This document shows, in pieces, positions 1,818 through 59,473 of a DNA stretch of 64,000 nucleotides (its first letter is position 1; each line of letters begins with the position of its first letter). A program made the position numbers and the translations under genes. The notes below the pieces were generated by a model that was not told where the DNA came from, searched no databases, and worked only from the letters and a program-made list of their open reading frames with translations. This DNA is from Candidatus Doudnabacteria bacterium RIFCSPHIGHO2_01_FULL_45_18 (GTDB lineage: Bacteria > Patescibacteriota > Doudnabacteria > UBA920 > O2-02-FULL-48-8), in the NCBI GenBank assembly GCA_001779915.1, contig MFEJ01000023.1, positions 6,165 through 70,164 of the forward strand, in the 5' to 3' direction.

Positions 1818-4658
1818 TTAACTGACTTTCAATTTTTCTTTGAGCACCCTGGCCAAGTATTGGCCGGTATAACTTCGTTTAACCCGCGCGACTTCTTCCG
1901 GCGTACCCACAGCCACCACTTCCCCGCCTTTGTTGCCCCCTTCCGGGCCCAGATCAATCACCCAGTCCGCGGATTTGATGACATCCAAATTATGTTCAAT
2001 CACAAGCACGGTGTTGCCCTTCTCCACTAAACGGCTCAAAACCCTAAGCAATCTTTTCACATCATCAAAATGCAAGCCAGTTGTCGGCTCGTCCAGAATA
2101 TATAAGGTACGGCCGGTTGAAGCGCGGGATAATTCTGAAGATAATTTAATTCGCTGGGCCTCGCCACCGGACAAAGTAGTGGCTTGCTGGCCCAAATGCA
2201 TGTAACCCAAACCCACGAGGGACAAAGTTTCCAGTTTGCGGGCAATCAGCGGGACAGCACGGAAAAACACATGGGCTTCGTCCACAGTCATTTCTAAAAC
2301 ATCCGAAATATTTTTGCCTTTGTAGTGAATGTCCAAGGCTTCCTTGTTATAACGCTTGCCTTTACATTCCTCACATGCCACATACACGTCTGGCAAGAAA
2401 TGCATTTCAATTTTTATAACCCCATCCCCGCCGCAAACCTCGCAGCGGCCACCCTTCACATTAAAGCTAAACCGGCCAGCTTTGTACCCGCGCATTCTAG
2501 CTTCTGGCACTGCCGCAAACAGATCACGGATGTAGGTAAAAACACCAGTATAAGTGGCGGGATTTGATCTGGGAGTGCGGCCAATCGGTGATTGATCAAT
2601 GTTTATAACCTTATCAATATTATCAATGCCTAAAATTTTCTTGTGTTCCCCGGGTGATTCCTTGGCATTATAAAAATATGCAGACAAAGCCTTGGCCAAA
2701 ATTTCGTTAAGCAAGGTTGATTTGCCGGATCCCGACACGCCGGTCAAACACACAAACTTTGACAAGGGAATTTCTACGTCTATATTTTTCAAATTGTTTT
2801 CGGTAGCACCCACGATTTTCAAAGTTTTACTATTGCCCTTTTTTCTGGCTTGCGGCACAGCCACACTTTCCTGACCAGATAAATATTTACCAGTCAAAGA
2901 TTGTTTATCCTTGGCAATCTGGGCGGGCGTGCCCTCGGCCACCACTTCCCCGCCATGCTTGCCCGCTCCGGGACCGATGTCCACCACCCAATCCGATTCC
3001 CAAATCGTTTCTTCGTCATGTTCAACCACAATGACCGTGTTGCCGAGGTCGCGCAGATTTTTCAAAGTCTTAAGCAAGCGTGCATTGTCGCGCTGATGCA
3101 GCCCGATGGAGGGCTCATCCAAAATATACAGAACCCCGGTTAAACCAGAACCGATTTGCGTGGCGAGCCGAATGCGCTGGGCTTCCCCGCCGGACAAAGT
3201 GTCAGCCGAGCGATCTAAGGTTAAGTAATTTAACCCCACATCCAGCAAGAAACTTAACCGCGCCGCGATTTCTTTAAAAATCTGGTGCGCGATTTTCATA
3301 TCTTTTTCGGAAAACTTTTTGGGTAAACTTTCGAAAAACACAACCGCATCATCAATGCTATAATTCGCCACATCCACAATGGATTTATCGTCAATGTGTA
3401 CTGCCAAAAACTCGGGTCGTAAACGCTGGCCTTTGCAAGTGGGACACTTGCTCACCCGCATGTACTGCTCAATCTCGCTGCGCATATAATCTGATTCGGT
3501 TTCTTTATACTTGCGCTCCAAGTTTGGGATCACACCATCAAATGTCGTGTGCCGACCATATCCGGACTCATCTTGAACGTCAATCTTGCGCTCCCCAGTA
3601 CCGTACAGAATCGCGTCCAGAGCTTTTTTAGGTAAATCTCTCACTGGCACATGGACCGAAAAACCATATTCTTTCGTCACAGCTTCCAAAACGCGTGAGT
3701 ACCAAGACAGCCTGGAAGTTGTTTTACTCCATGGACGAATCGCCCCTTCAGCTAAAGTCAATTTTGGATTCGGAATGACCAATTCGTGATCAATTTCCAG
3801 TCTGGTGCCCAAACCCGTACAGTCCGGACAAGCACCGTGCGGTGAATTGAAAGAAAAATTACGCGGATTTAATTCCGGCAAATTCATGTGCCCTTCCGGA
3901 CACGCAAAATTGGACGACAAGAGCATCTCTTCGCCGCCATCTTTCTGAATAATCACGGAGTCGTTGCCTAAATCAAGCGCGGTTTCTAAAGAATCAGCCA
4001 AGCGCGCCCGATCAGAACGATCCAACACAATCCGATCCACCACCACGTCAATCGTATGTTTTTTCTTTTTGTCCACATGAAGCTGCAAAGCTTCGTTCAA
4101 GTCCATGACCGTGCCGTCAAAACGCACGCGCTGGTAGCCGGATTTTTTGGCTTCTTCCAGCAAATGTTTGTGCTCACCCTTCATATCTTTAACCAAAGGG
4201 GCTAAGATTACAAATTTCGTGCCTGTCGGCCAAGCGGAGATCTGATCCACCATTTGGGTCACAGACTGGCCTATAATTTTCTTGCCGCAAACCGGACAAT
4301 GCGGCACACCCACGCGCGCGTAAAGCAACCGCAAGTAGTCGTAAATTTCCGTCACAGTTCCCACGGTTGATCTGGGATTATGAGAAGCGGATTTCTGGTC
4401 AATGGAAATTGCCGGGGATAAGCCTTCAATTTTGTCCACATCCGGTTTGTCCATGAGACCCAAAAACTGTCTGGCATAAGCTGACAAGGATTCCACATAC
4501 CGACGCTGACCTTCGGCATAGATCGTATCAAACGCGAGAGAAGATTTACCGCTACCCGAAAGACCCGTGATCACCACGAGTTTGTTTCTTGGGATATCCA
4601 AGTTGATGTTTTTGAGGTTATGAACCCTGGCGCCCCGAATAACGATTTTTTCTTGCAT
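1818..4658 (-). CDS. uvrA: excinuclease ABC subunit A
   Basis: 946 aa; two ABC ATPase modules ([20 protein letters not shown]), zinc-finger cysteines, LSGGEAQR signature twice. Confidence 0.95.
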
Positions 4659-4744
4659 AAAGAGGTCAGTCTCGGATTCTAAAATTAGCGACGACTATAT
4701 AGCCCTGTTTATAAGGGCTGTAATTAAGCCAACATAGTATATAT

Positions 4745-4785
4745 AAAAAAAATCGCCGGCGCAAGGGGGTGACCTTGGGCCGGCG
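4745..4785 (-). terminator. rho-independent terminator for the 132-aa minus-strand gene
   Basis: Stem CGCCGGC...GCCGGCG (4754-4785) followed on the minus strand by a U-run (A-run 4745-4752 on the plus strand). Confidence 0.5.
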
Positions 4786-4792
4786 AAACAGA

Positions 4793-5191
4793 TCAGTAAA
4801 GCAAAGATCGGAAGTCCTCTACTCCATGCGGACGCTTATAGATGGTCAAATCCTCACCTTCGGGATAAGGACGAACTGTTCCCACTACCACATATAAGCA
4901 ATCGAGGCCGGACCTCCATCGGGATATTCCTGTCTGTTGGTGAAGCGTGATTCCGGGTGCGTCCCACTCAATCTCTTCGACTCGAAACACTCTCGGTCGC
5001 TTGAGCCGACCCATCCGCGAGCCGGAAGCCACCCAGACCCGACTGTCCGGAAACGGCTTGAGTCTATTGAAAGGAATCTTGTGGTTAGCGCGCTTGCAAG
5101 CTATGTCCCTATACTCAAAGTGACCATTGTATACGATGCGCCAGAGCCAAGGATACTCCTTCTCCCACTTTGCCCATTCTGAATATTCCAT
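4793..5191 (-). CDS. hypothetical protein (Trp-rich N-terminus); own terminator; no recognisable domain
   Basis: 132-aa ORF with a downstream terminator and moderately elevated GC; member of a three-gene minus-strand cluster between uvrA and uvrC. Confidence 0.4.
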   Translation of the reverse strand: MEYSEWAKWEKEYPWLWRIVYNGHFEYRDIACKRANHKIPFNRLKPFPDSRVWVASGSRMGRLKRPRVFRVEEIEWDAPGITLHQQTGISRWRSGLDCLYVVVGTVRPYPEGEDLTIYKRPHGVEDFRSLLY

Positions 5192-5306
5192 ACCTGATCC
5201 TCCTGGATCTTTGAGCCATCACGGCAACTGGTAAATGTCTTGCAGCAAAATTACCGCAGGACAGCTCAATATACTATGATCTCATCCTCACCGTCAATAA
5301 CAAATC

Positions 5307-5337
5307 GCATGGAGCATTTTCTGCGCGGCCGAGCAAG
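5307..5337. repeat. 31-bp direct repeat copy A (TTTTCTGCGCGGCCGAGCAAGATTGGACTCA)
   Basis: Matches 5875..5905 with one mismatch (26 bp perfect). A GC-rich repeat in AT-rich intergenic DNA, bracketing gene 5352..5840. Confidence 0.8.
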
Positions 5338-5351
5338 ATTGGACTCACTTG

Positions 5352-5840
5352 CTATTCTAGCAAATTCATTTTCGCGGAAAAAATGCTGATATCACTTTTC
5401 AACTTCAGTTCTTCAATCAAATCTCTGATGTCTTGTGAGATTTCAAATGGACTTAAAAAACAACTCTCTTTGATTTGAGTATAGCCATTCCTGACCAAGA
5501 AGCGTCGGAACATATCACGGGCATTGTGTTTCTCTTCCGGGATATCAAAAATTATCAAAGTCGAAAAGCCGTCCGTCCTTGTTTTCTTCGTAACTGCCTT
5601 GCTTCTTAAAAACTTAGCTTTCTTTGTAATCACAAATACATGGCCATTCGCTGTCTTGGTTTTTTTCACTAAACCATGTTTTTCAAATCTTTTAAGCTTC
5701 TTAAGGTACCCTGACCGAGTTAAATTTATTCCATTCATCTGACCGTACGACTTGAAAACCAATCCCTCAGGTTCCACTTTGCTGATCATCTTAAATAATT
5801 CCCAGGTCAATCTTGCCGCTGCTCTTCTTGAGCTCATCAT
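5352..5840 (-). CDS. winged-helix DNA-binding protein with C-terminal Cas2-like (PaaX_C-like) domain
   Basis: The N-terminal GINLTRSGYLKKLKRFEKHGLV segment is wHTH-like. The C-terminal IIFDIPEEKHNARDMFRRFLVRNGYTQIKESCFLSPF matches the Cas2/PaaX_C pattern. A paralog lies at 53929..54495. Confidence 0.55.
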   Translation of the reverse strand: MMSSRRAAARLTWELFKMISKVEPEGLVFKSYGQMNGINLTRSGYLKKLKRFEKHGLVKKTKTANGHVFVITKKAKFLRSKAVTKKTRTDGFSTLIIFDIPEEKHNARDMFRRFLVRNGYTQIKESCFLSPFEISQDIRDLIEELKLKSDISIFSAKMNLLE

Positions 5841-5874
5841 AATATTTGATTTTAATGATATCTATAGTGTATAC

Positions 5875-5905
5875 TTTTTTGCGCGGCCGAGCAAGATTGG
5901 ACTCA
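5875..5905. repeat. 31-bp direct repeat copy B
   Basis: TTTTTTGCGCGGCCGAGCAAGATTGGACTCA; partner of 5307..5337. Confidence 0.8.
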
Positions 5906-5923
5906 TAAATGTATTATGAAAAT

Positions 5924-5975
5924 AAAAAAACCGCCCTGGTAAGACTCGTCAGATGAGTCAAGATCCTCGGGCGGC
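5924..5975 (-). terminator. rho-independent terminator for the 96-aa minus-strand gene
   Basis: Minus-strand GGGCGG...stem...CCGCCC followed by a run of seven or more T. Confidence 0.5.
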
Positions 5976-5978
5976 GTA

Positions 5979-6269
5979 CTAGTTGTTTAGCGCTTGATGA
6001 TGTCGATCGATCAAGCTTTCCATGAGCATCAATGGGATGCGCTGATCAAGGGCGCTGAACAATTGGGAAAAGGTGATCTCTTCTCCTCTTGCATCCGCCT
6101 GGGCAACTTCGTCATTGATCGCCCGCCGAAAAACTGCAGTAAAGTCATCAACCGTAAGACCCGGTCGCTCTTGAAAGAACTCGGGGTTATCTGCAAAAAA
6201 ATCTTTAAAACCTGCTAGGACAGCTTCGACGACCAGCTCCCATCTTTCGGGAGTCATGGTGATCTCCAT
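5979..6269 (-). CDS. hypothetical small acidic protein
   Basis: 96-aa ORF with its own terminator; no recognisable motif. Confidence 0.35.
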   Translation of the reverse strand: MEITMTPERWELVVEAVLAGFKDFFADNPEFFQERPGLTVDDFTAVFRRAINDEVAQADARGEEITFSQLFSALDQRIPLMLMESLIDRHHQALNN

Positions 6270-6411
6270 GTTCCCTCCTTAGACGTTACTCTTTGAAGAA
6301 AGTATAATACTTCCAGGCGAAAATCGCTAGCGTTTGCTCATGACTAAAGTACTGAGCATGCTACTGAGCAAAGTAAGTACCTATCTCTAGAGATATCTCT
6401 ATACCATTCCT

Positions 6412-8256
6412 ATGAATAAAACCGTCTCGCAAAAACTTAAAAGCCTCCCCCAGAAACCCGGCGTGTATGTTTTTAAAGACGCCAAAGGGTTGGTTCTTTA
6501 TGTGGGCAAGGCGGTGAAATTAAAAAACCGGGTGTCTTCGTATTTCAAAAAAACCGGTGGGGACAACCGCGGCCCCAGAATCCAATTAATGATTTCCCAG
6601 ATCAAGGATCTGGATTATACGGTTTGCGACAATGAGCTCGAAAGTCTGATCCTAGAAAATAACTTTATCAAACAACTCAAGCCCAAATACAACGTCATGC
6701 TGCAGGACGATAAAAACTACCTGTTTCTGAAGATCAATATTAAAGACGAAATTCCGACCATTGGATACGAAAGAAAAATCCTGGATAAATCCGCTCGCTA
6801 CTTCGGCCCGTACACTTCTTCCGTAGCCATCAAAGACACCTTGCGCTTGGTAAGGAAAATTTTTCCATATTGTGCCAATGCCAAGGTTTCCCAGAAACCC
6901 TGTTTTTACTACCACATTGGCAAATGCCCGGGCGTTTGCTTTGGCAAAATCACGCTGGAAGAATACAGAAATAACTACATCAAACCGATTATGCAGTTTT
7001 TAGAAGGTCACCGATCCGAAATTCTCAAAGACTTGCAAGCTCAAATGCGAATTTTTGCCACCCATAAAAAATTCGAAAAAGCGGCAAAAATTCGCGACCA
7101 GATTTTTGCTCTTAATCGCATGCTGGAACGGCAAAAATTAGTGTATCCGAAAAAAATTGACCAAGATGTGTTCTCGATTTTTCAAGATAGGGTGACTTGT
7201 ATCAATTTGTTCATCATCCGAGAAGGCAAAATGATTCAAAAAGAAAACTTTATCCTGGAAAACACCAAACAGCTCTCTCCTGCGGAAATTTTAGAAAACT
7301 TTTTGCCGCGCTACTATCTGGAAGCCAGCAATTGGCCTAAGAAAATTTTGCTACCTGTGGAAATTGATTTCGAACCATTGCGAGGAGTCCGGTCAGATGA
7401 CCGGACGACGAAGCAATCTTACGACAGATCGCCACGCGCCTTCGGCGCTCGCGATGGGCATATTAAAATCGTTATCCCGACCCGAGGCACTAAACTACAG
7501 CTCATGAAACTGGGCGAAAAGAATGCTCAACAGTACTTAGAAGCCCAAGGCGACAAACATTTGCTTGAGGAAGCGCGCCTCTTGTCTTCGCTGAAAGAAC
7601 TCCAGCGCGTGCTGGATTTGCCTGCGCTTCCCGGAAGAATTGAAGCTTATGATATTTCCAACATCCAAGGCACCAATCCGGTCGGATCCATGATTGTCTT
7701 TGATTTCGCAAGGCCAAAAAAATCCGATTACCGCAAATTTAAAATCAAACGCCGGACCGTGTCCGCCGAAGGCTTGCCGAAGGCGGATGACTTTGCCATG
7801 ATGCGGGAAATGCTCGACCGGAGATTCAAAAACGGTTGGTCTAGGCCGGATTTGATCTTAATTGATGGCGGCAAAGGGCAGCTTTCCAGCGCAGTCAGTG
7901 TTCTGAAACAAAATAAGCTAAATATCCCAATTATTGGTCTGGCGAAAAGGCTTGAGGAGATTTTCCTGCCCGCAAAAAAACATCCGATTATGTTGCGCGA
8001 TAATTCCATTGCCCTGTTCCTCCTCCAAAGGATCCGTGATGAAGCGCACCGGTTTGCAGTCAAATACCATCGCCAACTTCGATCAAAAACATCACTCACT
8101 TCGGTTCTGGATCAAATCAGCGGCATTGGGGAAGGGAGAAAGAAACAATTGTTACAAAAATTTGGTTCCCCACGCCTTGTTCGCGAAGCTTCGATCACTG
8201 ACCTGGCCGCGATTGTAGGCAAAACTCTTGCGGAAAAAATCAAAGCCAGCCTGTAA
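6412..8256 (+). CDS. uvrC: excinuclease ABC subunit C, carrying an in-frame repeat-element insertion
   Basis: N-terminal GIY-YIG motif (GVYVFKDAKGLVLYVGKA); UvrC homology region and C-terminal HhH; 614 aa. Confidence 0.9.
   Translation: MNKTVSQKLKSLPQKPGVYVFKDAKGLVLYVGKAVKLKNRVSSYFKKTGGDNRGPRIQLMISQIKDLDYTVCDNELESLILENNFIKQLKPKYNVMLQDDKNYLFLKINIKDEIPTIGYERKILDKSARYFGPYTSSVAIKDTLRLVRKIFPYCANAKVSQKPCFYYHIGKCPGVCFGKITLEEYRNNYIKPIMQFLEGHRSEILKDLQAQMRIFATHKKFEKAAKIRDQIFALNRMLERQKLVYPKKIDQDVFSIFQDRVTCINLFIIREGKMIQKENFILENTKQLSPAEILENFLPRYYLEASNWPKKILLPVEIDFEPLRGVRSDDRTTKQSYDRSPRAFGARDGHIKIVIPTRGTKLQLMKLGEKNAQQYLEAQGDKHLLEEARLLSSLKELQRVLDLPALPGRIEAYDISNIQGTNPVGSMIVFDFARPKKSDYRKFKIKRRTVSAEGLPKADDFAMMREMLDRRFKNGWSRPDLILIDGGKGQLSSAVSVLKQNKLNIPIIGLAKRLEEIFLPAKKHPIMLRDNSIALFLLQRIRDEAHRFAVKYHRQLRSKTSLTSVLDQISGIGEGRKKQLLQKFGSPRLVREASITDLAAIVGKTLAEKIKASL
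7365..7447 (+). repeat. family A palindromic element, copy 1 (in-frame inside uvrC)
   Basis: CCATTGCGAGGAG...GACGAAGCAATC...GCGCCTTCGGCGCTCGCGATGG. Translated as PLRGVRSDDRTTKQSYDRSPRAFGARDG inside the UvrC ORF. Confidence 0.85.
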
Positions 8257-10535: not shown

Positions 10536-10622
10536 GGGCGTGTGGTGGAATTGGCATACACGTACGCTTCAGGAGCGTATAGGCGAAAGCCTGTGAGAGT
10601 TCAAATCTCTCCACGCCCACCA
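10536..10622 (+). tRNA. tRNA-Leu (anticodon CAG)
   Basis: 7-bp acceptor stem GGGCGTG/CACGCCC; D-arm GTGGAATTGGCATACAC; anticodon loop TTCAGGA; long variable arm; T-arm GAGAGTTCAAATCTCTC; encoded CCA. Confidence 0.85.
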
Positions 10623-10755
10623 ACTGCCCATAATGCGTCCCGCCAAAGGCGGGAAAATCCCTGCCTGTCGGCAGGCAGGTCTCCGTACCCACCAGAATAG
10701 AGAAATCTTTAAGGCCCCAAAAGGGCTATTTTTATTGGCTAAAAACGCTTAACTA

Positions 10756-10844: not shown

Positions 10845-11342
10845 ATGAGTATGGAACTCGAGAACTTGATGCGTGGCGCAATCGCTCGAAGCGGACAACT
10901 GCTGGAAGTAATCCTGGTCAACGTGATTTTCAACATTCTCGCCGTGACCATGGGACTGTTCGGTGTGTACCTCGTGGCAGTCGTGCGAACGCCGCAAGCC
11001 TACATGTTTGCGCCGTACGTGATCGCCGGTTCGATGGCACTGGCTGCCAAGGCCGGATTTCTCCTCCATCGCAAATGGAGCGAATACGCGAAAGTGGAAC
11101 GGGTCAGCGAACAGCACGCTGGCGCATTCGTGAACCCGTCGGTCAACGCAAGAAACGAAAGCAGGGTGTCGGTAGGCATCGCCAACTTGATGGCTGTGGC
11201 CGCGATCGCGCTCCCAGTGCTGATCTACAGCTACATGCAGATTTGGACGCAGTCGCCGTCAATGATCGGCGTCCTGCAGGTCCTCCCGTCGCTCGGCATT
11301 ACCATCCTCAGCGTTTGGGCCTGGATTGACTCGGCCCGATAG
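10845..11342 (+). CDS. hypothetical integral membrane protein (about 4 TM) in GC-rich islet
   Basis: RBS AAGGAGGG upstream of the ATG; about 60% GC against a 45% background. Confidence 0.5.
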   Translation: MSMELENLMRGAIARSGQLLEVILVNVIFNILAVTMGLFGVYLVAVVRTPQAYMFAPYVIAGSMALAAKAGFLLHRKWSEYAKVERVSEQHAGAFVNPSVNARNESRVSVGIANLMAVAAIALPVLIYSYMQIWTQSPSMIGVLQVLPSLGITILSVWAWIDSAR

Positions 11343-11382
11343 CTATCCTTTCATCAACACGAGTTTTCACAGGAGCACAGAC

Positions 11383-12189
11383 ATGAACGGACTGATTCGA
11401 TTTGCCGCCTTTCTCGTCGTCACCTCGTTCGCAACGATCGCCACGGCGCAGGAACCGCAGGCCGAACCGCGCGAGCGGTTCACGATCATGGGCGGTGGCG
11501 GGCACAGAACCCTCACCGACTCCTCGTGGGTCGGGTCTGGCGGACCCACCAGCATGACCGACGTGAAGTTCGCCGGCTCAACCGGGGAACTGACGGGCTA
11601 TGCCTGGATCACGAAGAACGCCTTCGTGAAAGGATCCATTGAACGCGGATCCTTAACTCCAGACCGGATGATTTTTAACGGTCAGGGAACTGACGCGTTG
11701 AGATATCAGCGCCACCAGGCGCTGATCGGCTGGGCATTCACCTACGGGTCAATCGCCGGGGGCGTTGATCAGGTTTCTTTCGAACGAAACCAAGCTGGCC
11801 CGTACTCCTGGTCAGCTTGGCGGACGATCACCCGGACCGAAATGTTCGGTCCCGTGCTGGAACTCAATTTGGGATCGACGTTCGGCCGGTTCTATGTCGG
11901 CGAACAGTTCCAGTACAATCCGTTGATGCCGGGAACGTTCCGGCTGATCTCCGGACAAGATGGACTCGCACCGTCCCTGGACCAAGTCCAGAGCGGTCAC
12001 AACTGGTCAGCCTTCGAGCTCGCGATCAAAAGCGAGCTGGAGATCTACCGCGGCGTGGGTCTGACCATGAAGTGGGACATCAGCCGACGTTCCGAAACGG
12101 ACGTCGACACATTTCCCGGCCAAGAAGTGAACCGCCAGAAAGACAGCCAGCGATTCATGGTCGGCGCGATCTATCGATTCGAAAAGTAA
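11383..12189 (+). CDS. secreted beta-barrel-like protein (outer-membrane-protein-like) in GC-rich islet
   Basis: RBS AGGAG 7 nt from the ATG; signal peptide MNGLIRFAAFLVVTSFATIATAQEP; alternating amphipathic beta-strand pattern; C-terminal ...GAIYRFEK. Confidence 0.45.
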   Translation: MNGLIRFAAFLVVTSFATIATAQEPQAEPRERFTIMGGGGHRTLTDSSWVGSGGPTSMTDVKFAGSTGELTGYAWITKNAFVKGSIERGSLTPDRMIFNGQGTDALRYQRHQALIGWAFTYGSIAGGVDQVSFERNQAGPYSWSAWRTITRTEMFGPVLELNLGSTFGRFYVGEQFQYNPLMPGTFRLISGQDGLAPSLDQVQSGHNWSAFELAIKSELEIYRGVGLTMKWDISRRSETDVDTFPGQEVNRQKDSQRFMVGAIYRFEK

Positions 12190-14519: not shown

Positions 14520-15560
14520 ATGCAAGAAACTATCCTTTCTGGTATCCGCGCCTCGGGCAAATTACATCTTGGCAACTATCTAGGTGCTTTAAAGCAATTT
14601 GTGGAATTACAAAATGGAAACTCGTCCGCCGAAGCCTCGGCGAAGGCGGATTGCTATTTTTTTATTGCTGATCTTCACGCACTCACTACCCCGTTTGAAC
14701 CCAAAGAACTGTCACAGAACACGCTGGAAGTAGCCGCTGAATATCTGGCCGCCGGTATTGATCCGGATAAATCGGTGTTTTTTTTGCAAAGCCAAGTTTT
14801 AGAACACGCCCAACTCGCCTGGATCTTTAATTGCCTAACTTCTATAGGCGAACTTGAAAGGATGACTCAATTTAAGGAGAAGACCGAATTTAATGTTACC
14901 GCACGCGGCCGAACTTTAACTATGGGTCACCCAAATAAATTTATAGGCGCTGGGCTTCTAACATATCCGACTCTCATGGCCGCAGACATTTTACTTTACA
15001 AACCTACCGCAGTTCCTGTTGGCGATGACCAAACCCAACATGTGGAATTGACGCGCGACATCGCGAAAAAATTTAACAATCGTTTCGGCGAAACTTTTCC
15101 GATTCCCAAAACTTTTGAACCTGCCCGCCGAAGCCTTGGCGAAGGCGGGAAAAAGCCCCTGCGCATTATGAGCCTAACTGACCCAACCAAAAAAATGAGT
15201 AAGACTGGTGATGAGGCGTTGATGCTTGCTGATTCCCCGGATGAAATTCTGCGCAAACTCAAAAAGGCTGTCACGGCCACCGATACAAACCAAGGCTCAC
15301 CCGGGGTTGATAATCTTAAATTTTTACTGGACCAATTCGGTGGAACTGATCAAGTTCAAGATTTTACTAAATACAATGACGTGAAAGAAACACTTGCTAA
15401 AGTCATTACTAACTACTTTGCTGATTTTCGTGAGAAGAAAGCTAAACTTTTACAAAATCCCAAACAAGTGACTGACATTTTGAATGCTGGCGCGGCCAAA
15501 GCGCAAAAAATCGCATCCCGAACGTTAAACGAAGTGAAGGCAAAAATTGGGTTGATTTAA
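14520..15560 (+). CDS. trpS: tryptophan--tRNA ligase
   Basis: Class I synthetase with a KMSKT (KMSKS) motif and N-terminal GIRASGKLHLGNYLGAL. Confidence 0.8.
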   Translation: MQETILSGIRASGKLHLGNYLGALKQFVELQNGNSSAEASAKADCYFFIADLHALTTPFEPKELSQNTLEVAAEYLAAGIDPDKSVFFLQSQVLEHAQLAWIFNCLTSIGELERMTQFKEKTEFNVTARGRTLTMGHPNKFIGAGLLTYPTLMAADILLYKPTAVPVGDDQTQHVELTRDIAKKFNNRFGETFPIPKTFEPARRSLGEGGKKPLRIMSLTDPTKKMSKTGDEALMLADSPDEILRKLKKAVTATDTNQGSPGVDNLKFLLDQFGGTDQVQDFTKYNDVKETLAKVITNYFADFREKKAKLLQNPKQVTDILNAGAAKAQKIASRTLNEVKAKIGLI

Positions 15561-16063: not shown

Positions 16064-16130
16064 GTTTGGGGTTCTCTTTTTGATTTCGTTTTGCAACCTT
16101 TTGCACGACCGTGCAAAAGGTTGTACATAA

Positions 16131-23032: not shown

Positions 23033-23159
23033 CCATTGCGAGGAGGCCAATTTATTATAAAGCTCTATTCTTGTGGCCGACGCGGCAATCTGACTCTTTG
23101 GTTAGATCGCCACGCGCCTGTCAAGATTTGAGCTTTAATAAAGCAGTCGCTCGCGATGG
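23033..23159 (+). repeat. family A element copy 7 (expanded-loop variant) in the 5' region of the lipoprotein gene
   Basis: CCATTGCGAGGAG...CGACGCGGCAATCT...GATCGCCACGCGCC...AAAGCAGTCGCTCGCGATGG. Confidence 0.75.
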
Positions 23160-23180
23160 TCTTAAAAATATAATTACTTA

Positions 23181-31020: not shown

Positions 31021-32100
31021 ATGAAAAAAATTCTGAAAATTTTAAGTATAGAAACCAGTTGCGACGAGACTGCGGCGGCGGTGATTGTTAATGGCACGAT
31101 TAAATCCAACATTATTGCCTCCCAAGTCAAGCTGCACGCAAAATTTGGCGGGGTCGTCCCAGAAGTAGCCGCTCGCGAACATCTAATGGCTATCATCCCG
31201 ACTATAGATTTGGCTTTAAAAACTGCAAAAACAAATTTGGAAGACCTGGATTACATCGCAGTCACACAAGGACCTGGGCTTGCGACCTCGCTTATGGTCG
31301 GCATTGATACCGCGAAAGCCTTAGGCGCGGCTTTGGATATCCCGGTTATCCCCATCAATCATTTGGAAGCGCATATATACGCGAACTTCGTTAAACCTTT
31401 AACCATTGCGAGGAGCGTAGCGACGAAGCAATCTTACGATAGATCGCCACGCGCCTTCGGCGCTCGCGATGGTAATATTTTCCCCTCCCTGATTCTCATC
31501 GTCTCTGGCGGGCACACGCTTTTGGTCCAAATGAGGGATCATGGCCAATATCATATTTTAGGTGAGACGGTGGATGATGCTGCGGGGGAAGCCTTTGATA
31601 AAACCGCCAAGATGTTGGGGTTGGGTTATCCTGGCGGGCCAGCGCTTTCCAAATTGGCAAAATCTGGTAACCCAACAGCCTTTAATTTCCCGCGCCCCAT
31701 GCTTAACTCGGCTAATTTTGAATTCAGTTTCTCGGGGCTGAAGACCGCCGTGCTGTACAAAATCATGGAACATGAAACATGGAACATGAAACAGAAAGCA
31801 GATATAGCCGCCTCGGTCCAGGCCGCGATCGTGGATGTCTTAATCGCTAAATTAGAAAAAGCTATCCAAAGATACCACCCGAAAACCATTATGTTAGGCG
31901 GTGGGGTGGCGGCCAACGAACTTTTGCGCCAGCGTTTCAAGTTTCAAGCTTCACGTTTCAAAATTCATTGCTCTATTCCAGCACTGGAGTACTGCACTGA
32001 CAATGCAGCCATGATCGGACTCGCAGCTTACCATCGTTTGATCAGAAAAAAACCGCAAACAAAAAATTTCTCGGCTCAACCCAATCTGAGCTTAAAATGA
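31021..32100 (+). CDS. tsaD: tRNA N6-adenosine threonylcarbamoyltransferase TsaD, carrying an in-frame repeat-element insertion
   Basis: SIETSCDETAAAV and a GGH metal motif; the insertion encodes TIARSVATKQSYDRSPRAFGARDGN. Confidence 0.9.
   Translation: MKKILKILSIETSCDETAAAVIVNGTIKSNIIASQVKLHAKFGGVVPEVAAREHLMAIIPTIDLALKTAKTNLEDLDYIAVTQGPGLATSLMVGIDTAKALGAALDIPVIPINHLEAHIYANFVKPLTIARSVATKQSYDRSPRAFGARDGNIFPSLILIVSGGHTLLVQMRDHGQYHILGETVDDAAGEAFDKTAKMLGLGYPGGPALSKLAKSGNPTAFNFPRPMLNSANFEFSFSGLKTAVLYKIMEHETWNMKQKADIAASVQAAIVDVLIAKLEKAIQRYHPKTIMLGGGVAANELLRQRFKFQASRFKIHCSIPALEYCTDNAAMIGLAAYHRLIRKKPQTKNFSAQPNLSLK
31403..31472 (+). repeat. family A palindromic element copy 2 (in-frame inside tsaD)
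   Basis: CCATTGCGAGGAGCGTAGCGACGAAGCAATCTTACGATAGATCGCCACGCGCCTTCGGCGCTCGCGATGG. Confidence 0.85.
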
Positions 32101-34997: not shown

Positions 34998-35077
34998 TGC
35001 GAGGAGTCCTGGTTGCTCGGGACGACGAAGCAATCTATCCTAATGACAGATCGCCACGGCCTTCGGCCTCGCGATGG
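34994..35077 (+). repeat. family A element copy 3 (between rpoC and the downstream gene)
   Basis: CCATTGCGAGGAGTCCTGGTTGCTCGGGACGACGAAGCAATC...GGCCTTCGGCCTCGCGATGG. Confidence 0.8.
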
Positions 35078-35100
35078 TTAGTATTCTTCTTATTACTATT

Positions 35101-43940: not shown

Positions 43941-44513
43941 TTACAACACCTCTTCTTTCCTCGGATGTTTTTGTTTATCATTCAGTTTGATCAGTTTTAC
44001 GACTTTATCAATTAGCTTTTTCGGATCCGCATCAAACACCACGCGTCGGCGTCCCCGCTTGGCCAATTTTAAAATTCGATCAATTTCCGGTTCCACCCCC
44101 CCGGTACCTGTCAGCACGCCAACCACCCGCTTATCCTCAAACGCGGACGTAAACTCGTTTAGGGTCCCGATCCGGCCGCAAACCACAATAATGGCATCAG
44201 CCGATCTGGTCATCAGCATATTCCGGCCGGAATAATCAAAACCCGTATAAATAATCAGATCCATGTAACGGGTCGGCAACCGGTAACTGTGCACATGTGA
44301 TTGTTTGGAAACCGCCGGCGATAATCCGATAGAAATGCCACCCACGGACTTGGCGCCTCTCGTTGCCCATTCCGGCACGCCGATGGTCGCGCCAGTGATC
44401 AAGACACAGCTATGTAAAGCAATTTGCCGGCCGACTTCGTAGGCTTTTTTAAACGCGCCCTTGGTGCAGTTGTTGATGGCCGAACCGGACACCGCGATTT
44501 TGTATTGGATCAT
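43941..44513 (-). CDS. TIGR00725/LOG-like Rossmann-fold protein
   Basis: IAVSGSA...GVLTGTGG pattern; 190 aa. Confidence 0.45.
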   Translation of the reverse strand: MIQYKIAVSGSAINNCTKGAFKKAYEVGRQIALHSCVLITGATIGVPEWATRGAKSVGGISIGLSPAVSKQSHVHSYRLPTRYMDLIIYTGFDYSGRNMLMTRSADAIIVVCGRIGTLNEFTSAFEDKRVVGVLTGTGGVEPEIDRILKLAKRGRRRVVFDADPKKLIDKVVKLIKLNDKQKHPRKEEVL

Positions 44514-45445: not shown

Positions 45446-45621
45446 TTTCGTTTCTTCGTCCTTGCATCCCGAATCACAATCGCGCCGTTGATTTTCCGAA
45501 CCAGCATGCGCTGATGCTCGCGCAAGCTTAAAGCGCGAACAATGTCGGCCGGAATGATTACCGACAAAGAACCATTGCCAATCTTTTGGAGTTTTCTAAT
45601 CGAATTTGTGGGTCTAGCCAT
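45442..45621 (-). CDS. AbrB/MazE (SpoVT-AbrB) family small DNA-binding protein
   Basis: 59-aa ORF MARPTNSIRKLQKIGNGSLSVIIPADIVRALSL...; its stop overlaps the femAB ATG (ATGA). Confidence 0.4.
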   Translation of the reverse strand: MARPTNSIRKLQKIGNGSLSVIIPADIVRALSLREHQRMLVRKINGAIVIRDARTKKRK

Positions 45622-46388: not shown

Positions 46389-46447
46389 ATGGTCATTATA
46401 CGCAAATTTCGGGCATAAAAAAAGAGCCGGAGCTGAAGCTTCGGCTG

Positions 46448-47386: not shown

Positions 47387-47412
47387 GTCTGCTAAAATGA
47401 AATTTAGACAAC

Positions 47413-50374: not shown

Positions 50375-50383
50375 TCGGAAACT

Positions 50384-53878: not shown

Positions 53879-53919
53879 TTGACAATTATTACCGACGTTA
53901 TAATATTAACTATAGTTAA
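53879..53919 (+). promoter_or_regulatory. promoter (TTGACA ... TATAAT) with an overlapping palindromic operator TTAACTATAGTTAA
   Basis: -35 at 53879-53884, -10 at 53899-53904, palindrome at 53906-53919, immediately upstream of the wHTH regulator gene. Confidence 0.45.
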
Positions 53920-53928
53920 GTTTATAAC

Positions 53929-54495
53929 GTGCCACGAAAACCAAACGAACACTTATCTGTTTATCTTCTAAAGCTTGTGGGACTGGGAAGCTTGTTTTTG
54001 TTAGTTTCAATTTTATCTCCACAACTGCCCTATTTGGTAATCAAAGCCCTATTAAAGAAACGGTTCGGGGCTAAGTATAACAATAAACAAATTGGACATT
54101 CTATTCGATATCTTAAACGAAAAAAATTTATAGCTCTTGAAAATAAATCCGGTAAGATACAGATGGTCCTGACTAAGCTTGGGTTGAAACATTTACAAAA
54201 TGCTGACCTTGATATGATCAAAATTGCTCCTCATGCCTGGGATGCCAAGTGGCGAATAGTTATGTTTGATATCCCTGAAGAACATAAACCAGCTCGGCAT
54301 GTCTTTCGCAGGAAACTTAAAGAGTTGGGATTTGTTCATTTCCAAAGAAGCGTCTTTTTACTCCCATTCAAGTGTGAAAAAGAAATATACGAACTGGCTG
54401 AGCATCTTTCAATCAGTTCTTATGTCCACATATTATCCGCAGATCGCTTTCCAAACGATAAATCGCTTCTGAAAAGATGCCAAATCACCCACTGA
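53929..54495 (+). CDS. winged-helix + Cas2-like (PaaX_C-like) protein, paralog of 5352..5840
   Basis: KWRIVMFDIPEEHKPARHVFRRKLKELGFVHFQRSVFLLPF aligns with the paralog's IIFDIPEEKHNARDMFRRFLVRNGYTQIKESCFLSPF; non-ATG start (GTG) likely. Confidence 0.5.
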   Translation: MPRKPNEHLSVYLLKLVGLGSLFLLVSILSPQLPYLVIKALLKKRFGAKYNNKQIGHSIRYLKRKKFIALENKSGKIQMVLTKLGLKHLQNADLDMIKIAPHAWDAKWRIVMFDIPEEHKPARHVFRRKLKELGFVHFQRSVFLLPFKCEKEIYELAEHLSISSYVHILSADRFPNDKSLLKRCQITH

Positions 54496-54582
54496 TAATA
54501 ATGTTAACGATAGTGAAATTTATTATCATCTCAAAAATCATATAATAAAACCGCCTTTTGGGCGATTCAGTTAATACGTATC

Positions 54583-57876: not shown

Positions 57877-58296
57877 ATGCAATTCAAAAATCTCGCTTTG
57901 GTTCAGGTTAAAAAACTAGCCCAAAATTTGGCAAAGGAAGTCAAAAAAACAGGCATGGTCATTGGCCTGACTGGCAATTTAGGCAGCGGCAAAACGACTT
58001 TTGTCAAAGCTTTTGCCACCAAATTAGGCTTTAAAAAAATTCACAGCCCAACGTTTGTGATTTCGCATCAATACCGATTGGGTTCTAAATTTTTATACCA
58101 TTTAGATTTCTATCGGCTTGCTCATCTCAAGCAACTAGCCCCCTTAGGTTTAGAAGAAATCATTGGTGGCAAAAACATTGTCCTGATTGAATGGGTGGAC
58201 AAATTTCCGAAAATTTTCAAACAATGCGATCTTGTTATTCACTTTCAAGTTAAACCTTATGATCAACGCGATATTACAATCAAGTTTCAAAATTAG
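57877..58296 (+). CDS. tsaE: tRNA threonylcarbamoyladenosine biosynthesis ATPase TsaE
   Basis: GLTGNLGSGKTTFVKAF P-loop; 139 aa. Confidence 0.8.
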   Translation: MQFKNLALVQVKKLAQNLAKEVKKTGMVIGLTGNLGSGKTTFVKAFATKLGFKKIHSPTFVISHQYRLGSKFLYHLDFYRLAHLKQLAPLGLEEIIGGKNIVLIEWVDKFPKIFKQCDLVIHFQVKPYDQRDITIKFQN

Positions 58297-59473
58297 GACC
58301 ATTGCGAGGAGGAACGTTCCGACGAAGCAATCTTTAAAAAAGATCGCCACGGCCTTCGGCCTCGCGATGGTTATTTATTTATTTATCGTGCCTAATCTTG
58401 CATCGGCCAAAACCTTGCTCTTTTTCGACAAAACTTGGGAAGTTTTACCGTTCCCGTCAGGCACGGTTAACCTCCTGCCCATCAGAAACGACCTGGACTT
58501 AACTATGCTTGCCAAGCAAGCTATTTTGGGGCGCGAGGAACTGGCTCAGACCTGGCTCTTAGACGAAATCTCGATCAAACAACTGGATGATATCAGTAGT
58601 CAGGTCAACCAAGTCGGCCAAGATGCCAAACTGGTTATGGACGGAAATCGCGCCGCGGAATTTAATCCGGGACAAAACGGCCAGGCTTTGGATTTATATA
58701 CGCTTAAAATTCTGCTACGGTCAGACCAAGCGGAAATCAGTCTGCCAGTTTTAATCAGCGAACCGGCGGTTAAATTATCCGACACGAACCGTCTTGGGAT
58801 TAACGAGCTGGTGGCTGTGGGTGAATCGGATTTTGCAGGTTCACCAAAAAACCGGATTCACAACCTGACGGTAGGAGCGAATAAATTCAATGGCCTCATC
58901 ATAGAGCCGGGTGAAGTATTTTCGTTTAATAAGTATTTGGGTGACGTGGATGGCGAGCACGGCTTTTTACCGGAACTGGTGATTAAAGCTGGCGGCGTGA
59001 CCCCAGAATTCGGCGGTGGGCTTTGCCAAGTTTCCTCCACGACCTTCCGGGCGGCCATGAACGCCGGTTTGCCGATTACGGCTAGACGAAACCACAGCTT
59101 TGCGGTACAATACTATGCTCCCCAGGGAACGGATGCCACGATCTATCCCGGAGCCGTAGATTTAAAATTTGTTAATAATTTGCCAAGCAAATTGTTGATT
59201 CAAACCAAAATTGTGGGAACCAAATTATATTTTAACTTGTACGCCACGAAAGATAATCGAACGGTAAGCTTTGAAGGCCCCACCCAATACGATCAGAAGC
59301 CTGATGGATCCATGAAAGCGATCTGGACCAGGCATGTGACCCTTAATGGCCAAACTACGGATCAAGAGTTTAAAAGCGCGTATTCCCCGCCAGCGCTGTA
59401 TCATCGCGATTCATCAGAACAAAGCGCAACTCCCAATCCTGATGCGCAACCAGATCCACAACCGACCACTTAA
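58259..59473 (+). CDS. VanW-family protein; its N-terminal tail/TM runs through a family A element
   Basis: GGGLCQVSSTTFRAAMNAGL VanW motif; start uncertain (ATG 58259 overlapping tsaE, or ATG 58363 inside the repeat terminus). Confidence 0.65.
   Translation: MINAILQSSFKIRTIARRNVPTKQSLKKIATAFGLAMVIYLFIVPNLASAKTLLFFDKTWEVLPFPSGTVNLLPIRNDLDLTMLAKQAILGREELAQTWLLDEISIKQLDDISSQVNQVGQDAKLVMDGNRAAEFNPGQNGQALDLYTLKILLRSDQAEISLPVLISEPAVKLSDTNRLGINELVAVGESDFAGSPKNRIHNLTVGANKFNGLIIEPGEVFSFNKYLGDVDGEHGFLPELVIKAGGVTPEFGGGLCQVSSTTFRAAMNAGLPITARRNHSFAVQYYAPQGTDATIYPGAVDLKFVNNLPSKLLIQTKIVGTKLYFNLYATKDNRTVSFEGPTQYDQKPDGSMKAIWTRHVTLNGQTTDQEFKSAYSPPALYHRDSSEQSATPNPDAQPDPQPTT
58299..58370 (+). repeat. family A element copy 4
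   Basis: CCATTGCGAGGAGGAACGTTCCGACGAAGCAATCTTTAAAAAAGATCGCCACGGCCTTCGGCCTCGCGATGG. Confidence 0.85.

What the first reader, a model, noticed from the sequence alone, without database searches (positions are those of the whole stretch)
5307..5905. A 31-bp direct repeat (one mismatch) bracketing a single-gene cassette that encodes a wHTH + Cas2-like protein, with two small terminator-equipped ORFs on either side
TTTT(C/T)TGCGCGGCCGAGCAAGATTGGACTCA occurs at 5307-5337 and 5875-5905, exactly flanking the 162-aa gene 5352..5840. Its C-terminal half (FDIPEE..AR..FRR.L...GY.Q...S.FL.PF) fits the Cas2/PaaX_C-like fold and its N-terminal half is winged-helix. The repeat is GC-rich in AT-rich spacer DNA. 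It is too long for a transposon target-site duplication and too far apart (537-bp spacer) for a CRISPR repeat. It looks like att-type repeats of a mini integrative cassette, or paired operator sites. Both flanking small genes (4793..5191 and 5979..6269) lack recognisable domains. The three-gene cluster sits between uvrA and uvrC, and each small gene has its own terminator.
Basis: partly seen in the sequence, partly recalled or inferred. Interest (0 to 1): 0.7.

Follow-up and report, generated by a model that had tools for sequence, protein, structure and literature searches.

The report
Twin operators bracketing a mini-PaaX repressor
The 31-bp repeat is most likely the binding site of the small regulator encoded between its two copies, and this "site–gene–site" layout recurs across a large uncharacterised regulator family in ultra-small (CPR) bacteria, with no sign of a mobile cassette.

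Summary
The repeat is real: 30 of 31 bases match and it occurs only twice in 64 kb. The first copy lies at 5317-5347, not 5307-5337. It flanks gene 5352..5840(-), which encodes a winged-helix plus Cas2-like (Pfam PaaX_M) protein.

Each copy is most of a ~38-bp operator. Outer half-sites (clade consensus TGTWTC…GAKACA) lie 26 bp apart around a CG-rich centre, TTGCTCGGCCG(C/A)GCA. E. coli PaaX sites have the same geometry (TGATTC-N27-GAATCG).

All seven REG1 lineages and all five REG2 loci examined carry an upstream site and a second one 1-40 nt after the stop codon. Across 73 family genes, 41 share a word of at least 12 nt between their two flanks, against 7 of 400 mismatched controls. The core changes with protein subfamily, so the sites belong to the encoded protein rather than to LexA or another common factor.

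The window copies do not fold as RNA. No integrase, tRNA, CRISPR array, phage or plasmid relative was found. The family holds about 3,000-5,600 clusters at 50% identity.

Best reading: an autoregulated mini-PaaX repressor with paired operators. Binding was not tested, and the role of the downstream site is unresolved.

The parts
5868..5905 (-). Upstream operator of REG1 (contains repeat copy 2, 5875-5905). On the gene strand it reads TGAGTCCAATC TTGCTCGGCCGCGCAA AAAAGTATACA. It has outer half-sites TGAGTC and TATACA 26 bp apart and a CG-rich centre. The right half-site overlaps a -10-like hexamer TACACT, 17 nt after TTGCTC.
   Evidence: The alignment of 13 ortholog sites has invariant TTG.TCG..CG.GCA.AAA and outer TG/A.A positions. 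E. coli Pa shows the same geometry, TGATTC-N27-GAATCG. No single-strand fold (z = +1.2). Promoter assignment is inferred.
5310..5347 (-). Downstream operator (contains repeat copy 1, 5317-5347). It starts 4 nt after the REG1 stop codon. The left half-site and core are the same as upstream, but the core ends in G instead of A and the right half-site is degenerate (GCTCCA). It lies 13 bp upstream of the promoter-like site of the 132-aa gene.
   Evidence: A downstream twin is present in all REG1 lineages and in 44% or more of family members, against 0.8% of control windows. No fold (z = +0.3).
5352..5840 (-). REG1: a 162-aa winged-helix plus Cas2-like (PaaX_M) protein that lacks the PaaX C-terminal domain. 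It is the predicted repressor that binds the two operators.
   Evidence: Orthologs are in Candidatus Doudnabacteria.
5268..5297 (-). Promoter-like site TTGACG-18-TATATT for the 132-aa gene, just downstream of the second operator.
   Evidence: consensus scan only, 10 of 12 matches.
4793..5191 (-). 132-aa orphan gene, the candidate target of the downstream operator.
   Evidence: No domain hits. Only one homolog found (61% identity), in a related uvrC-uvrA interval without REG1.
4744..4786 (-). Intrinsic terminator of the 132-aa gene (hairpin plus U-run).
   Evidence: (-24.4 kcal/mol, z = -4.9).
5923..5975 (-). Intrinsic terminator of the upstream 96-aa gene. It insulates REG1 from read-through.
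   Evidence: -22.2 kcal/mol, z = -3.7.
5979..6269 (-). 96-aa orphan ORF upstream. It is a neighbour, not a conserved partner: relatives have a 65-aa gene or other genes at this position.
53929..54495 (+). REG2: a second family member in the same window (188 aa) with its own, different pair of palindromic sites.
53895..53930 (+). REG2 upstream 36-nt palindrome ACGTTATAATATTAACTATAGTTAAGTTTATAACGT. It overlaps the -10 of promoter-like site TTGACA-16-TAATAT.
54493..54528 (+). REG2 downstream 36-nt palindrome TGATAATAATGTTAACGATAGTGAAATTTATTATCA. It begins at the stop codon.

Best explanation
The gene encodes a truncated PaaX-type repressor (winged helix plus a Cas2-like dimerisation domain, without the PaaX C-terminal domain). 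The two repeat copies are its own operators.

Proposed mechanism:
- A dimer binds each ~38-bp site.
- The two winged helices read the outer hexamers (TGTWTC / GAKACA in this clade), which lie 26 bp apart.
- The Cas2-like dimer sits over the CG-rich centre.
- The upstream site overlaps the gene's promoter and gives negative autoregulation.
- The downstream site, placed directly after the stop codon, controls what lies beyond it. Here that is the orphan 132-aa gene; in relatives it is ruvA or small secreted or membrane proteins.
- Where the next gene is convergent, the downstream site would act as a bound roadblock, or as the second anchor of a ~550-bp repression loop around the regulator gene.

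Shown: the protein's domains, the conservation and co-variation of the paired sites across the family, their PaaX-like geometry, and the lack of RNA structure in this clade.

Inferred: binding itself, which domain contacts which part of the site, the promoter position, and the role of the downstream site.
For: 1) Domains. PaaX_M E 1.3e-15. The AF2 model's best fold match is E. coli PaaX across both domains. hhalign to E. coli PaaX residues 59-176 gives 91% probability.

2) REG1 orthologs. The upstream-plus-downstream layout is found in all seven lineages: window/L001, L003, L005 (3 sites), L009, L023, L101 and L102. For L102 the evidence is only a 27-nt word shared between its two flanks; its core differs (TTGACCGGCCGGACAA), it was not in the alignment, and the downstream copy was only partly captured. 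In the other six the core is invariant while the surrounding DNA diverges (proteins 42-70% identical to the window's). All 13 sites aligned from those six lineages share one orientation.

3) REG2 orthologs. All five loci examined have paired sites.

4) Whole family. Of 73 diverse family genes, 41 share a word of at least 12 nt between the upstream and downstream flank, against 7 of 400 mismatched pairs. Palindromes with at least 14 of 18 pairs occur in 37% of upstream and 30% of downstream flanks, against 1.1% and 0.4% of control windows.

5) Co-variation. The core differs between subfamilies (CTCGGCCGAG, CACGGCCGTG, GACGGCCGTC, AACGGCCGTT, CACGATCGTG, GCGTACGC, CGCTATAGCG, and others) but is the same on both sides of each gene.

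6) Geometry. Arm symmetry extends to position 18 from the centre and stops at position 20. The review PMC9493321 gives the E. coli PaaX site as TGATTC-N27-GAATCA. I found TGATTC-N27-GAATCG at Pa and TGTTTC-N28-GAATCA at Pz in E. coli K-12. The REG1 clade has TGTTTC-N26-GATACA.

7) Promoter. All six upstream sites carry a TAnAnT hexamer 17 nt after TTGCTC. Only one of seven downstream sites matches even the looser TAnnnT.

8) Additional sites. Extra sites with the same arms occur elsewhere in genomes that encode a family member, for example L076 alongside L028.
Against: No binding experiment exists, and no transcription start sites are known.

Distant members (L028, L048, L054, L135) share the window's exact 16-bp core although their recognition helices differ. 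The core may therefore be read by the conserved Cas2-like domain or by something else.

In some loci the outer arms differ between the two copies while each copy stays palindromic (L054, L130, L156, L170). That pattern looks like a base-pairing constraint.

The gene downstream is co-directional in only 37 of 65 cases, so the second site is not simply the next gene's operator.

The window's downstream copy lacks the right half-site.

Neighbours of solo sites show no common theme.
Confidence: 0.72

Rival explanations
1. Mobile or integrative mini-cassette. The two repeats are recombination (att-like) or element-end sequences, and the unit repeat-gene-repeat moves as a block.
For: The unit sits at different places in related Doudnabacteria: between rpsT and uvrB, between uvrB and ruvA, after the LOG-family (lysine decarboxylase-like) gene, and between uvrC and uvrA.

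A related uvrC-uvrA interval (L189) lacks the gene and both repeats. A solo site sits after uvrB in L034.

Neighbours across the family are unrelated housekeeping genes. Several paralogs occur per genome.
Against: No integrase, transposase or tRNA lies nearby. There are no relatives in 2.9 million viral contigs or 72,556 plasmids. No near-identical copies appear in different contexts.

The position differences are between genomes whose proteins are only 42-70% identical to the window's, where ordinary rearrangement is a sufficient explanation.

The L189 'empty' interval has no clean boundary, and its upstream small gene differs too.

Co-variation of the core with the protein, and the PaaX geometry, are both explained by operator function.
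Confidence: 0.08
2. The Cas2-like domain is an active nuclease. The palindromes are its cleavage or processing sites, making this a self-bracketed toxin, homing or recombination module rather than a plain repressor.
For: The family keeps the Cas2 signature FDIPE..R..RR.L...G..Q.S, including the Asp at the end of strand 1, which E. coli PaaX has lost. Sequence matches to solved Cas2 proteins (E 2e-5) are stronger than to PaaX (1.7e-3).
Against: Conservation of the Asp is not proof of catalysis. The best fold and profile matches over the whole protein are to the repressor PaaX. No partner antitoxin or cas gene is present. The sites are stably conserved, which would be unexpected if they were cleaved.
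Confidence: 0.06
3. RNA-level element. The palindromes act as hairpins in the transcript, as terminators, stabilisers or binding sites for the protein on its own mRNA.
For: In many subfamilies the sites are perfect 36-38-nt palindromes. In some loci the arms co-vary between the two copies. The downstream site always follows the stop codon closely.
Against: The window copies and their clade have no fold better than shuffled sequence (z = +1.2 and +0.3), yet they are strongly conserved in sequence.

The central 4-6 nt are always self-complementary (GGCC, GATC, GTAC, TATA). A hairpin loop does not need that, but a two-fold symmetric DNA site does.

No U-run follows the palindromes. Upstream copies also sit between divergent genes (L003, L009, L057). 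Rfam finds nothing.
Confidence: 0.05
4. The sites are operators of another regulator, for example a LexA-type SOS box. This was suggested by the uvr/ruv neighbourhood and by a TGCNC-N4-GNGCA-like core. The gene would then be merely a regulon member.
For: REG1 orthologs lie next to uvrA, uvrB, uvrC or ruvA in every lineage. From memory, the core resembles the Fibrobacter LexA box.
Against: The core changes with the subfamily of the enclosed protein across the family, which a shared regulator would not produce. Family members outside Doudnabacteria have unrelated neighbours.

uvrA, uvrC and uvrB promoters in the window carry no such site.

PMC7739468 cites the Patescibacteria study (Sanchez-Osuna et al. 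2017) among its examples of LexA proteins that evolved direct-repeat motifs. I could not read that study.

No LexA-like ORF was found in any fetched locus.
Confidence: 0.04

Closest known systems
PaaX, the phenylacetyl-CoA-responsive repressor of the paa catabolon (E. coli, Pseudomonas; PDB 8A39, 3L09)
   Same: Both have an N-terminal winged helix followed by the Cas2-like PaaX_M domain, and PaaX is the best fold match over both domains. The operator geometry is the same: two inverted hexamers about 27 bp apart (TGATTC-N27-GAATCG in E. coli, TGTTTC-N26-GATACA here). PaaX also represses its own promoter.
   Different: The C-terminal PaaX_C domain is absent, so the reported effector-binding region is missing. 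REG1 scores far below the PaaX equivalog threshold (24.5 against 264.55 bits). No paa genes are nearby. The centre of the site is a conserved CG-rich palindrome. A second site follows the stop codon. The Cas2 signature residues that E. coli PaaX has lost are retained.
Cas2 (CRISPR adaptation protein) and its VapD-like relatives
   Same: The C-terminal half has the ferredoxin-like beta-alpha-beta-beta-alpha-beta fold and the Cas2 motif, including the Asp at the end of strand 1. NCBI annotates many family members as Cas2.
   Different: Scores fall below the Cas2 profile thresholds. The domain is fused to a DNA-binding domain. There is no cas1 and no CRISPR array. The repeats are 2-3 copies about 550 bp apart with genes in between.
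Repressors that use two distant operators and DNA looping (GalR, LacI, DeoR, AraC)
   Same: Two cognate sites hundreds of bp apart, one of them at the promoter.
   Different: Here the loop, if it forms, would enclose the regulator's own coding sequence, and this layout is conserved across a whole family. Oligomerisation beyond a dimer was not tested. The hint of helical phasing is weak.
REP elements flanking RAYT transposase genes, and IS200/IS605 (a small gene between subterminal palindromes)
   Same: A single small gene with an RRM-like or ferredoxin-like fold is bracketed by palindromes, with a few solo palindromes elsewhere in the genome.
   Different: There is no HUH or tyrosine catalytic motif. 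Only 2-3 sites per genome were detected with the strict pattern, not hundreds. The sites have PaaX operator geometry. There are no relatives on mobile replicons.

Membership tests
PaaX (TIGR02277 equivalog) | Central Cas2-like PaaX_M domain (PF20803) | tested here: met
   E 1.3e-15, 57.7 bits against a 24-bit cut-off, residues 89-158.
PaaX (TIGR02277 equivalog) | [quoted passage not shown] | tested here: met
   The AF2 model shows H4-20, H42-54 and a wing at E58-71. PDB profile hits to AspA and MarR-type winged-helix proteins. hhalign to PaaX residues 59-176.
PaaX (TIGR02277 equivalog) | C-terminal PaaX_C helical domain (PF08223) | tested here: not met
   The protein ends at residue 162, directly after the Cas2-like domain, and has no PF08223 hit. 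Only the most distant relatives (P0251, P0252) carry it.
PaaX (TIGR02277 equivalog) | Whole-protein score above the equivalog cut-off (264.55 bits) | tested here: not met
   24.5 bits.
PaaX (TIGR02277 equivalog) | Location in or next to paa catabolic genes | tested here: not met
   Neighbours are uvrA, uvrC and two orphan ORFs. Across the family, neighbours are diverse housekeeping genes.
PaaX (TIGR02277 equivalog) | Operator made of two inverted hexamers about 27 bp apart | tested here: met
   Window: TGAGTC-N26-TATACA. Clade: TGTTTC-N26-GATACA. E. coli: TGATTC-N27-GAATCG. Binding itself was not tested.
PaaX (TIGR02277 equivalog) | Release from DNA by phenylacetyl-CoA | not testable with these tools
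   No effector can be inferred. The domain reported to bind it is absent.
Cas2 | Score above the Cas2 profile thresholds | tested here: not met
   TIGR01573: 22.4 against 24.5 bits. PF09827: 14.9 against 23.8 bits.
Cas2 | Ferredoxin-like fold with a conserved Asp at the end of strand 1 | tested here: met
   The AF2 model, Foldseek matches to Cas2 with probability 1.0, and the invariant F98-D99.
Cas2 | Encoded next to cas1 and a CRISPR array | tested here: not met
   No array-like repeat family occurs in the window, and no cas genes appear among neighbours in any locus.
CRISPR array | Three or more repeats of 23-47 bp separated by non-coding spacers of similar length | tested here: not met
   Two copies (three in L005) spaced 536-617 bp apart, each interval holding a gene.
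Integrative cassette with att or attC sites | A site-specific recombinase, plus empty sites that retain one repeat copy | tested here: not met
   No recombinase ORF adjacent. The related interval without the gene has no repeat copy. No viral or plasmid relatives.
Intrinsic terminator or RNA hairpin element | A stable stem-loop, followed by a U-run in the case of a terminator | tested here: not met
   Fold z-scores of +1.2 and +0.3 for the two window copies. An A-run, not a U-run, follows on the gene strand. No Rfam match.
LexA SOS box | One shared motif upstream of lexA, recA and uvr genes across the genome | tested here: not met
   The motif varies with the enclosed protein's subfamily. It is absent from the uvrA, uvrB and uvrC promoters in the window.

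The most novel reading that the evidence does not exclude
The family keeps the Cas2 catalytic-type signature that the true repressor PaaX has lost, and each member is bracketed by ~36-38-bp palindromic direct repeats, the size and style of CRISPR repeats.

The evidence does not exclude that these proteins are sequence-guided Cas2-type nucleases or DNA-processing proteins acting on their own flanking repeats. That would make them a self-bracketed selfish or addiction module. It could also be a relic of how a Cas2-like protein first became coupled to palindromic repeats.
Probability: 0.06. Interest if true: 0.85.

Novelty: new variant of a known kind. Interest (0 to 1): 0.5.

Why it matters
Almost nothing is known about gene regulation in CPR/Patescibacteria, because these bacteria are almost entirely uncultured. 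This analysis links a large regulator family to cognate DNA sites that can be read straight from the sequence.

- **Family size.** About 3,000 clusters at E ≤ 1e-10 and about 5,600 at E ≤ 1e-3 (50% identity clustering).
- **Annotation.** Members are often labelled 'Cas2' or 'PaaX'. Neither label passes the membership tests above.
- **Testable predictions.** Each protein comes with a predicted ~38-bp operator, which gives dozens of naturally orthogonal pairs that could be tested in vitro or in E. coli.
- **PaaX biology.** The conserved CG-rich centre suggests how the Cas2-like domain of PaaX-type proteins might sit on DNA. The 2022 review consulted (PMC9493321) reports no PaaX-operator complex structure.
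- **Open question.** A repressor gene enclosed by its own two operators is an unusual, conserved design. Whether it works by looping, roadblock or insulation is unresolved.

Tried and rejected
- **tRNA 3' end or att site.** ARAGORN finds only tRNA-Leu at 10.5 kb and tRNA-Glu at 30.6 kb, and there is no integrase. Rejected.
- **Generic genomic repeat (REP or MITE).** Only two copies occur in 64 kb. A 19-nt degenerate pattern found about 90 stretches in 596 Gb, roughly the ~70 I estimated by chance (my own calculation, no shuffle control for that scan). Only about a dozen were in CPR genomes, 1-3 per genome. Rejected.
- **LexA box.** Considered because of the uvr neighbourhood and the TGCNC-N4-GNGCA form. 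Rejected because the core co-varies with the enclosed protein.
- **Terminator or RNA motif.** Rejected on the folds and Rfam.
- **Conserved functional partner genes.** Pfam on 81 neighbours gave only diverse housekeeping families. Genes next to solo sites show no theme.
- **Conserved three-gene cluster.** The 132-aa protein has a single homolog. Relatives carry unrelated small genes in the same position.
- **Helical phasing of the two sites.** R = 0.42 at 10.3 bp, p about 0.008 before correction for seven periods tested. Inconclusive.
- **A simple recognition code between helix residues and arm or core bases.** None was evident in 85 sequences.
- **Literature.** Searches for this family (PaaX with Cas2-like, PaaX-like, CPR with LexA) found no description. 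The Patescibacteria SOS paper is not held.
- **My own correction.** My first reading of a 'perfect TTGACA-17-TATAAT' promoter for REG2 was wrong. The scan gives TTGACA-16-TAATAT.
Full report
**1. Observation**

The sequence TTTT(C/T)TGCGCGGCCGAGCAAGATTGGACTCA occurs at 5317-5347 and 5875-5905 on the + strand, with 30 of 31 bases identical. The 26-nt core is found nowhere else in the 64-kb window, even with three mismatches, and none is expected by chance.

The copies bracket ORF 5352..5840 on the minus strand. One copy ends 4 nt after the stop codon. The other lies 35 nt upstream of the ATG.

The flanking genes are uvrA (1818..4658, -) and uvrC (6412..8256, +). The two small ORFs (96 and 132 aa) have no hit above threshold in Pfam, NCBIfam, PADLOC or PHROGs. 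Each is followed by a genuine hairpin plus U-run, with z-scores of -3.7 and -4.9.

**2. The protein**

The 162-aa product, called REG1 here, matches Pfam PaaX_M, the 'Cas2-like central domain of PaaX', at E 1.3e-15. It falls just under the Cas2 thresholds.

An AlphaFold2 model (pLDDT 79.5) shows a winged helix-turn-helix followed by a beta-alpha-beta-beta-alpha-beta domain. Its best structural match, over both domains, is E. coli W PaaX (8A39), followed by many Cas2 structures.

REG1 lacks the PaaX C-terminal domain and scores 24.5 bits against the 264.55-bit PaaX equivalog cut-off. It is therefore not a PaaX ortholog.

Unlike E. coli PaaX, it keeps the Cas2-type motif FDIPE..R..RR.L...G..Q.S.

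Close homologs come from Candidatus Doudnabacteria in the Candidate Phyla Radiation (CPR). A profile search of 1.84 billion cluster representatives finds 5,622 relatives at E ≤ 1e-3 and 2,988 at E ≤ 1e-10. Most are 150-200 aa long. NCBI labels many of them 'CRISPR-associated endonuclease Cas2'.

**3. What the repeat is**

On the gene strand each copy reads TGAGTCCAATC-TTGCTCGGCCGCGCA(A/G)-AAAA. The middle is a near-palindrome.

I fetched the DNA around orthologs (42-70% protein identity). In every lineage the gene has one such site upstream and another starting 1-9 nt after its stop codon:
- L003: 5948 and 6500
- L005: three sites, one before each of three consecutive genes
- L009: central bases GATC instead of GGCC
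- L023 and L101
- L102: supported only by a 27-nt word shared between its two flanks. Its core differs (TTGACCGGCCGGACAA), it was not in the alignment, and the downstream copy was only partly captured.

In an alignment of 13 sites from six of these lineages, TTG.TCG..CG.GCA.AAA and the outermost TG…A.A positions are invariant while the rest of the intergenic DNA diverges. All sites have the same orientation relative to the gene.

**4. Generality across the family**

The window holds a second family member, REG2 (53929..54495, +; 24% identical to REG1). It has a different pair of 36-nt palindromes. One overlaps the -10 of a TTGACA-16-TAATAT promoter-like site, and one begins at the stop codon. 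Four REG2-type homologs in other genomes all have twin sites.

A metagenome scan gave 80 more loci. Results for 73 distinct family genes with adequate flanks:
- 41 share an identical word of at least 12 nt between the 200 nt upstream and the 120 nt downstream, against 7 of 400 mismatched upstream/downstream pairs.
- Palindromes with at least 14 of 18 complementary pairs occur in 37% of upstream and 30% of downstream flanks, against 1.1% and 0.4% of control windows from the same contigs.

The shared word is a palindrome whose core depends on the subfamily. Examples are CTCGGCCGAG, CACGGCCGTG, GACGGCCGTC, AACGGCCGTT, CACGATCGTG, GCGTACGC, CGCTATAGCG and GCGGCCGC.

A site that is the same on both sides of each gene, but differs between paralogs, is what one expects of the encoded protein's own recognition site. 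It excludes a shared factor such as LexA. I had considered LexA because REG1 orthologs lie next to uvr and ruv genes.

**5. Geometry**

Averaged over 40 sites, complementarity between the two arms stays at 0.7-0.9 out to position 18 from the centre and falls to background at position 20. Sequence information at positions 13-18 is low. The central 4-6 nt are always self-complementary (GGCC, GATC, GTAC, TATA).

A review gives the E. coli PaaX site as TGATTC-N27-GAATCA (PMC9493321). In E. coli K-12 I found TGATTC-N27-GAATCG upstream of paaA and TGTTTC-N28-GAATCA upstream of paaZ.

The REG1 clade has TGTTTC-N26-GATACA, and the window has TGAGTC-N26-TATACA. The repeat is therefore a PaaX-geometry operator with widely spaced hexamers for the two winged helices.

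The difference from E. coli is a conserved CG-rich centre. I infer, without a test, that the Cas2-like dimer contacts this centre, because both the CG..CG positions and the Cas2-like motif are invariant across the family.

**6. Not RNA structure, not a mobile element**

The two window copies fold no better than shuffled sequence (z = +1.2 and +0.3). An A-run rather than a U-run follows them, and Rfam finds nothing. Upstream copies also occur between divergent genes (L003, L009).

No integrase or tRNA lies nearby. No family member was found in 2.9 million viral contigs or 72,556 plasmids.

The unit does sit at different spots of a conserved polA-rpsT-uvrB-ruvA-femAB-LOG block in different Doudnabacteria, and between uvrC and uvrA here. 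Those genomes are distant from one another.

The single homolog of the 132-aa protein lies in a related uvrC-uvrA interval that lacks REG1 and both repeats. Homology with the window starts only about 55 nt before the 132-aa start codon, and the upstream small gene is different. This is a variable interval, not a clean excision scar.

**7. Mechanism**

*Shown:* the domains, the paired and co-varying sites, the PaaX-like geometry, and a TAnAnT hexamer 17 nt after TTGCTC in six of six upstream sites. Only one of seven downstream sites matches even the looser TAnnnT.

*Inferred:* a REG1 dimer binds each site. The upstream site overlaps the promoter and gives autorepression.

The downstream site gates what follows. 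Here that is the orphan 132-aa gene, whose promoter-like site TTGACG-18-TATATT begins 13 bp beyond the operator. In relatives it is ruvA (L009), small secreted or membrane proteins (L005), or a CAP-domain protein (L054).

The next gene is co-directional in only 37 of 65 cases. In L003 and L101 the site is the only element between two convergent stop codons. The second site must therefore also serve the regulator itself, most plausibly as a roadblock or insulator, or as the second anchor of a 500-700-bp loop. A hint of 10.3-bp phasing is not robust.

**8. Unexplained points**

- Distant members share the window's exact 16-bp core despite different recognition helices.
- In some loci the arms differ between the two copies yet each copy stays palindromic.
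- In this clade the upstream copy almost always ends ..GCAA and the last copy ..GCAG.
- A few solo sites occur without a family gene, including one in the window at 16092-16125.
- REG1 orthologs are always near uvrA, uvrB or ruvA, although no uvr promoter in the window carries the site.

**9. Verdict**

The protein call is right.

The finding is a new variant of a known kind: a truncated, Cas2-motif-retaining PaaX-type regulator family with self-bracketing operators. It is widespread in CPR bacteria and, as far as the searchable literature shows, undescribed.

Noticed in passing
window 7406-7464 (inside uvrC), 31421-31479 (inside ORF 31021..32100), 58325-58386 (inside ORF 58187..59473), 35032-35093, 23095-23176: A GC-rich hairpin repeat family, ...GATCGCCACG(C)GCCTTCGGC(G)CTCGCGATGG..., sits in frame inside protein-coding genes. 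It adds nearly the same peptide (TKQSYDRSPRAFGARDG) to UvrC and to an unrelated ORF. It resembles the small palindromic insertion elements known from Rickettsia (RPE-like).
   Followed up: partly
window 7756-7786 (uvrC), 14619-14649 and 15118-15148 (trpS-like ORF 14520..15560); 12545-12570 and 60168-60193 (two other ORFs), 10659-10684: Two further short palindromic repeat families lie inside ORFs. CCGCCGAAGSCTYGGCGAAGGCGG encodes SAEASAKAD-like peptides, and ACCTGCCTGCCGGCAGGCAGG encodes LPAGRQA.
   Followed up: partly
window 16092-16125: A 34-nt palindrome, tgcaaccttttgcacgACcgtgcaaaaggttgta, has the same build as the family's sites (arms, A/T tract, TTGCACG..CGTGCAA core). No family gene is next to it. 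It lies between convergent ORFs.
   Followed up: partly
window 5321-5336 vs 5879-5894; L003, L005, L009, L101: The single mismatch between the two copies is conserved across lineages. Upstream copies end ..GCAA (5 of 6) and the last copy ends ..GCAG (6 of 7). This suggests a functional difference between the two sites rather than drift.
   Followed up: partly
window 1818-8256 and 44500-54500; L003, L005, L009, L023, L034, L101: REG1 orthologs always lie within a few genes of uvrA, uvrB, uvrC or ruvA, at different positions in different genomes. REG2 follows polA in the window. No uvr promoter in the window carries the site, and REG2 homologs elsewhere have other neighbours. The association is unexplained.
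   Followed up: partly
L034 7302-7317 (Doudnabacteria MFEY01000007.1): A solo copy of the TTGCTCGGCCGAGCAA site lies about 35 nt after the uvrB stop codon and about 60 nt upstream of the promoter-like region of a secreted-protein gene. No family gene is in the 700 nt available.
   Followed up: partly
window 5192-5245 vs L189 495-548: The leader of the orphan 132-aa gene (GCCGTGAYGGCTCAAAGATCCAGGAGGATCAGGT-ATG) is almost identical in a relative whose protein is only 61% identical. The leader is better conserved than the coding sequence.
   Followed up: no
L005 3085, 4223, 4326, 4842; window 5923-5945; L189 ~385-410: The same terminator tail, CTT(G/A)CCAGGGCGG followed by a T-run, follows several unrelated small genes in the variable interval next to uvrA in different genomes.
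   Followed up: no
window 11000-12000, next to tRNA-Leu 10536-10622: An island of 59% G+C in a 45% G+C background lies directly after a tRNA gene. It was not examined.
   Followed up: no
P0020, P0183, P0190, P0193, P0208, P0213, P0230: Public annotation names many members of this family 'CRISPR-associated endonuclease Cas2', and JGI names them 'PaaX'. Neither label passes the membership tests above.
   Followed up: partly
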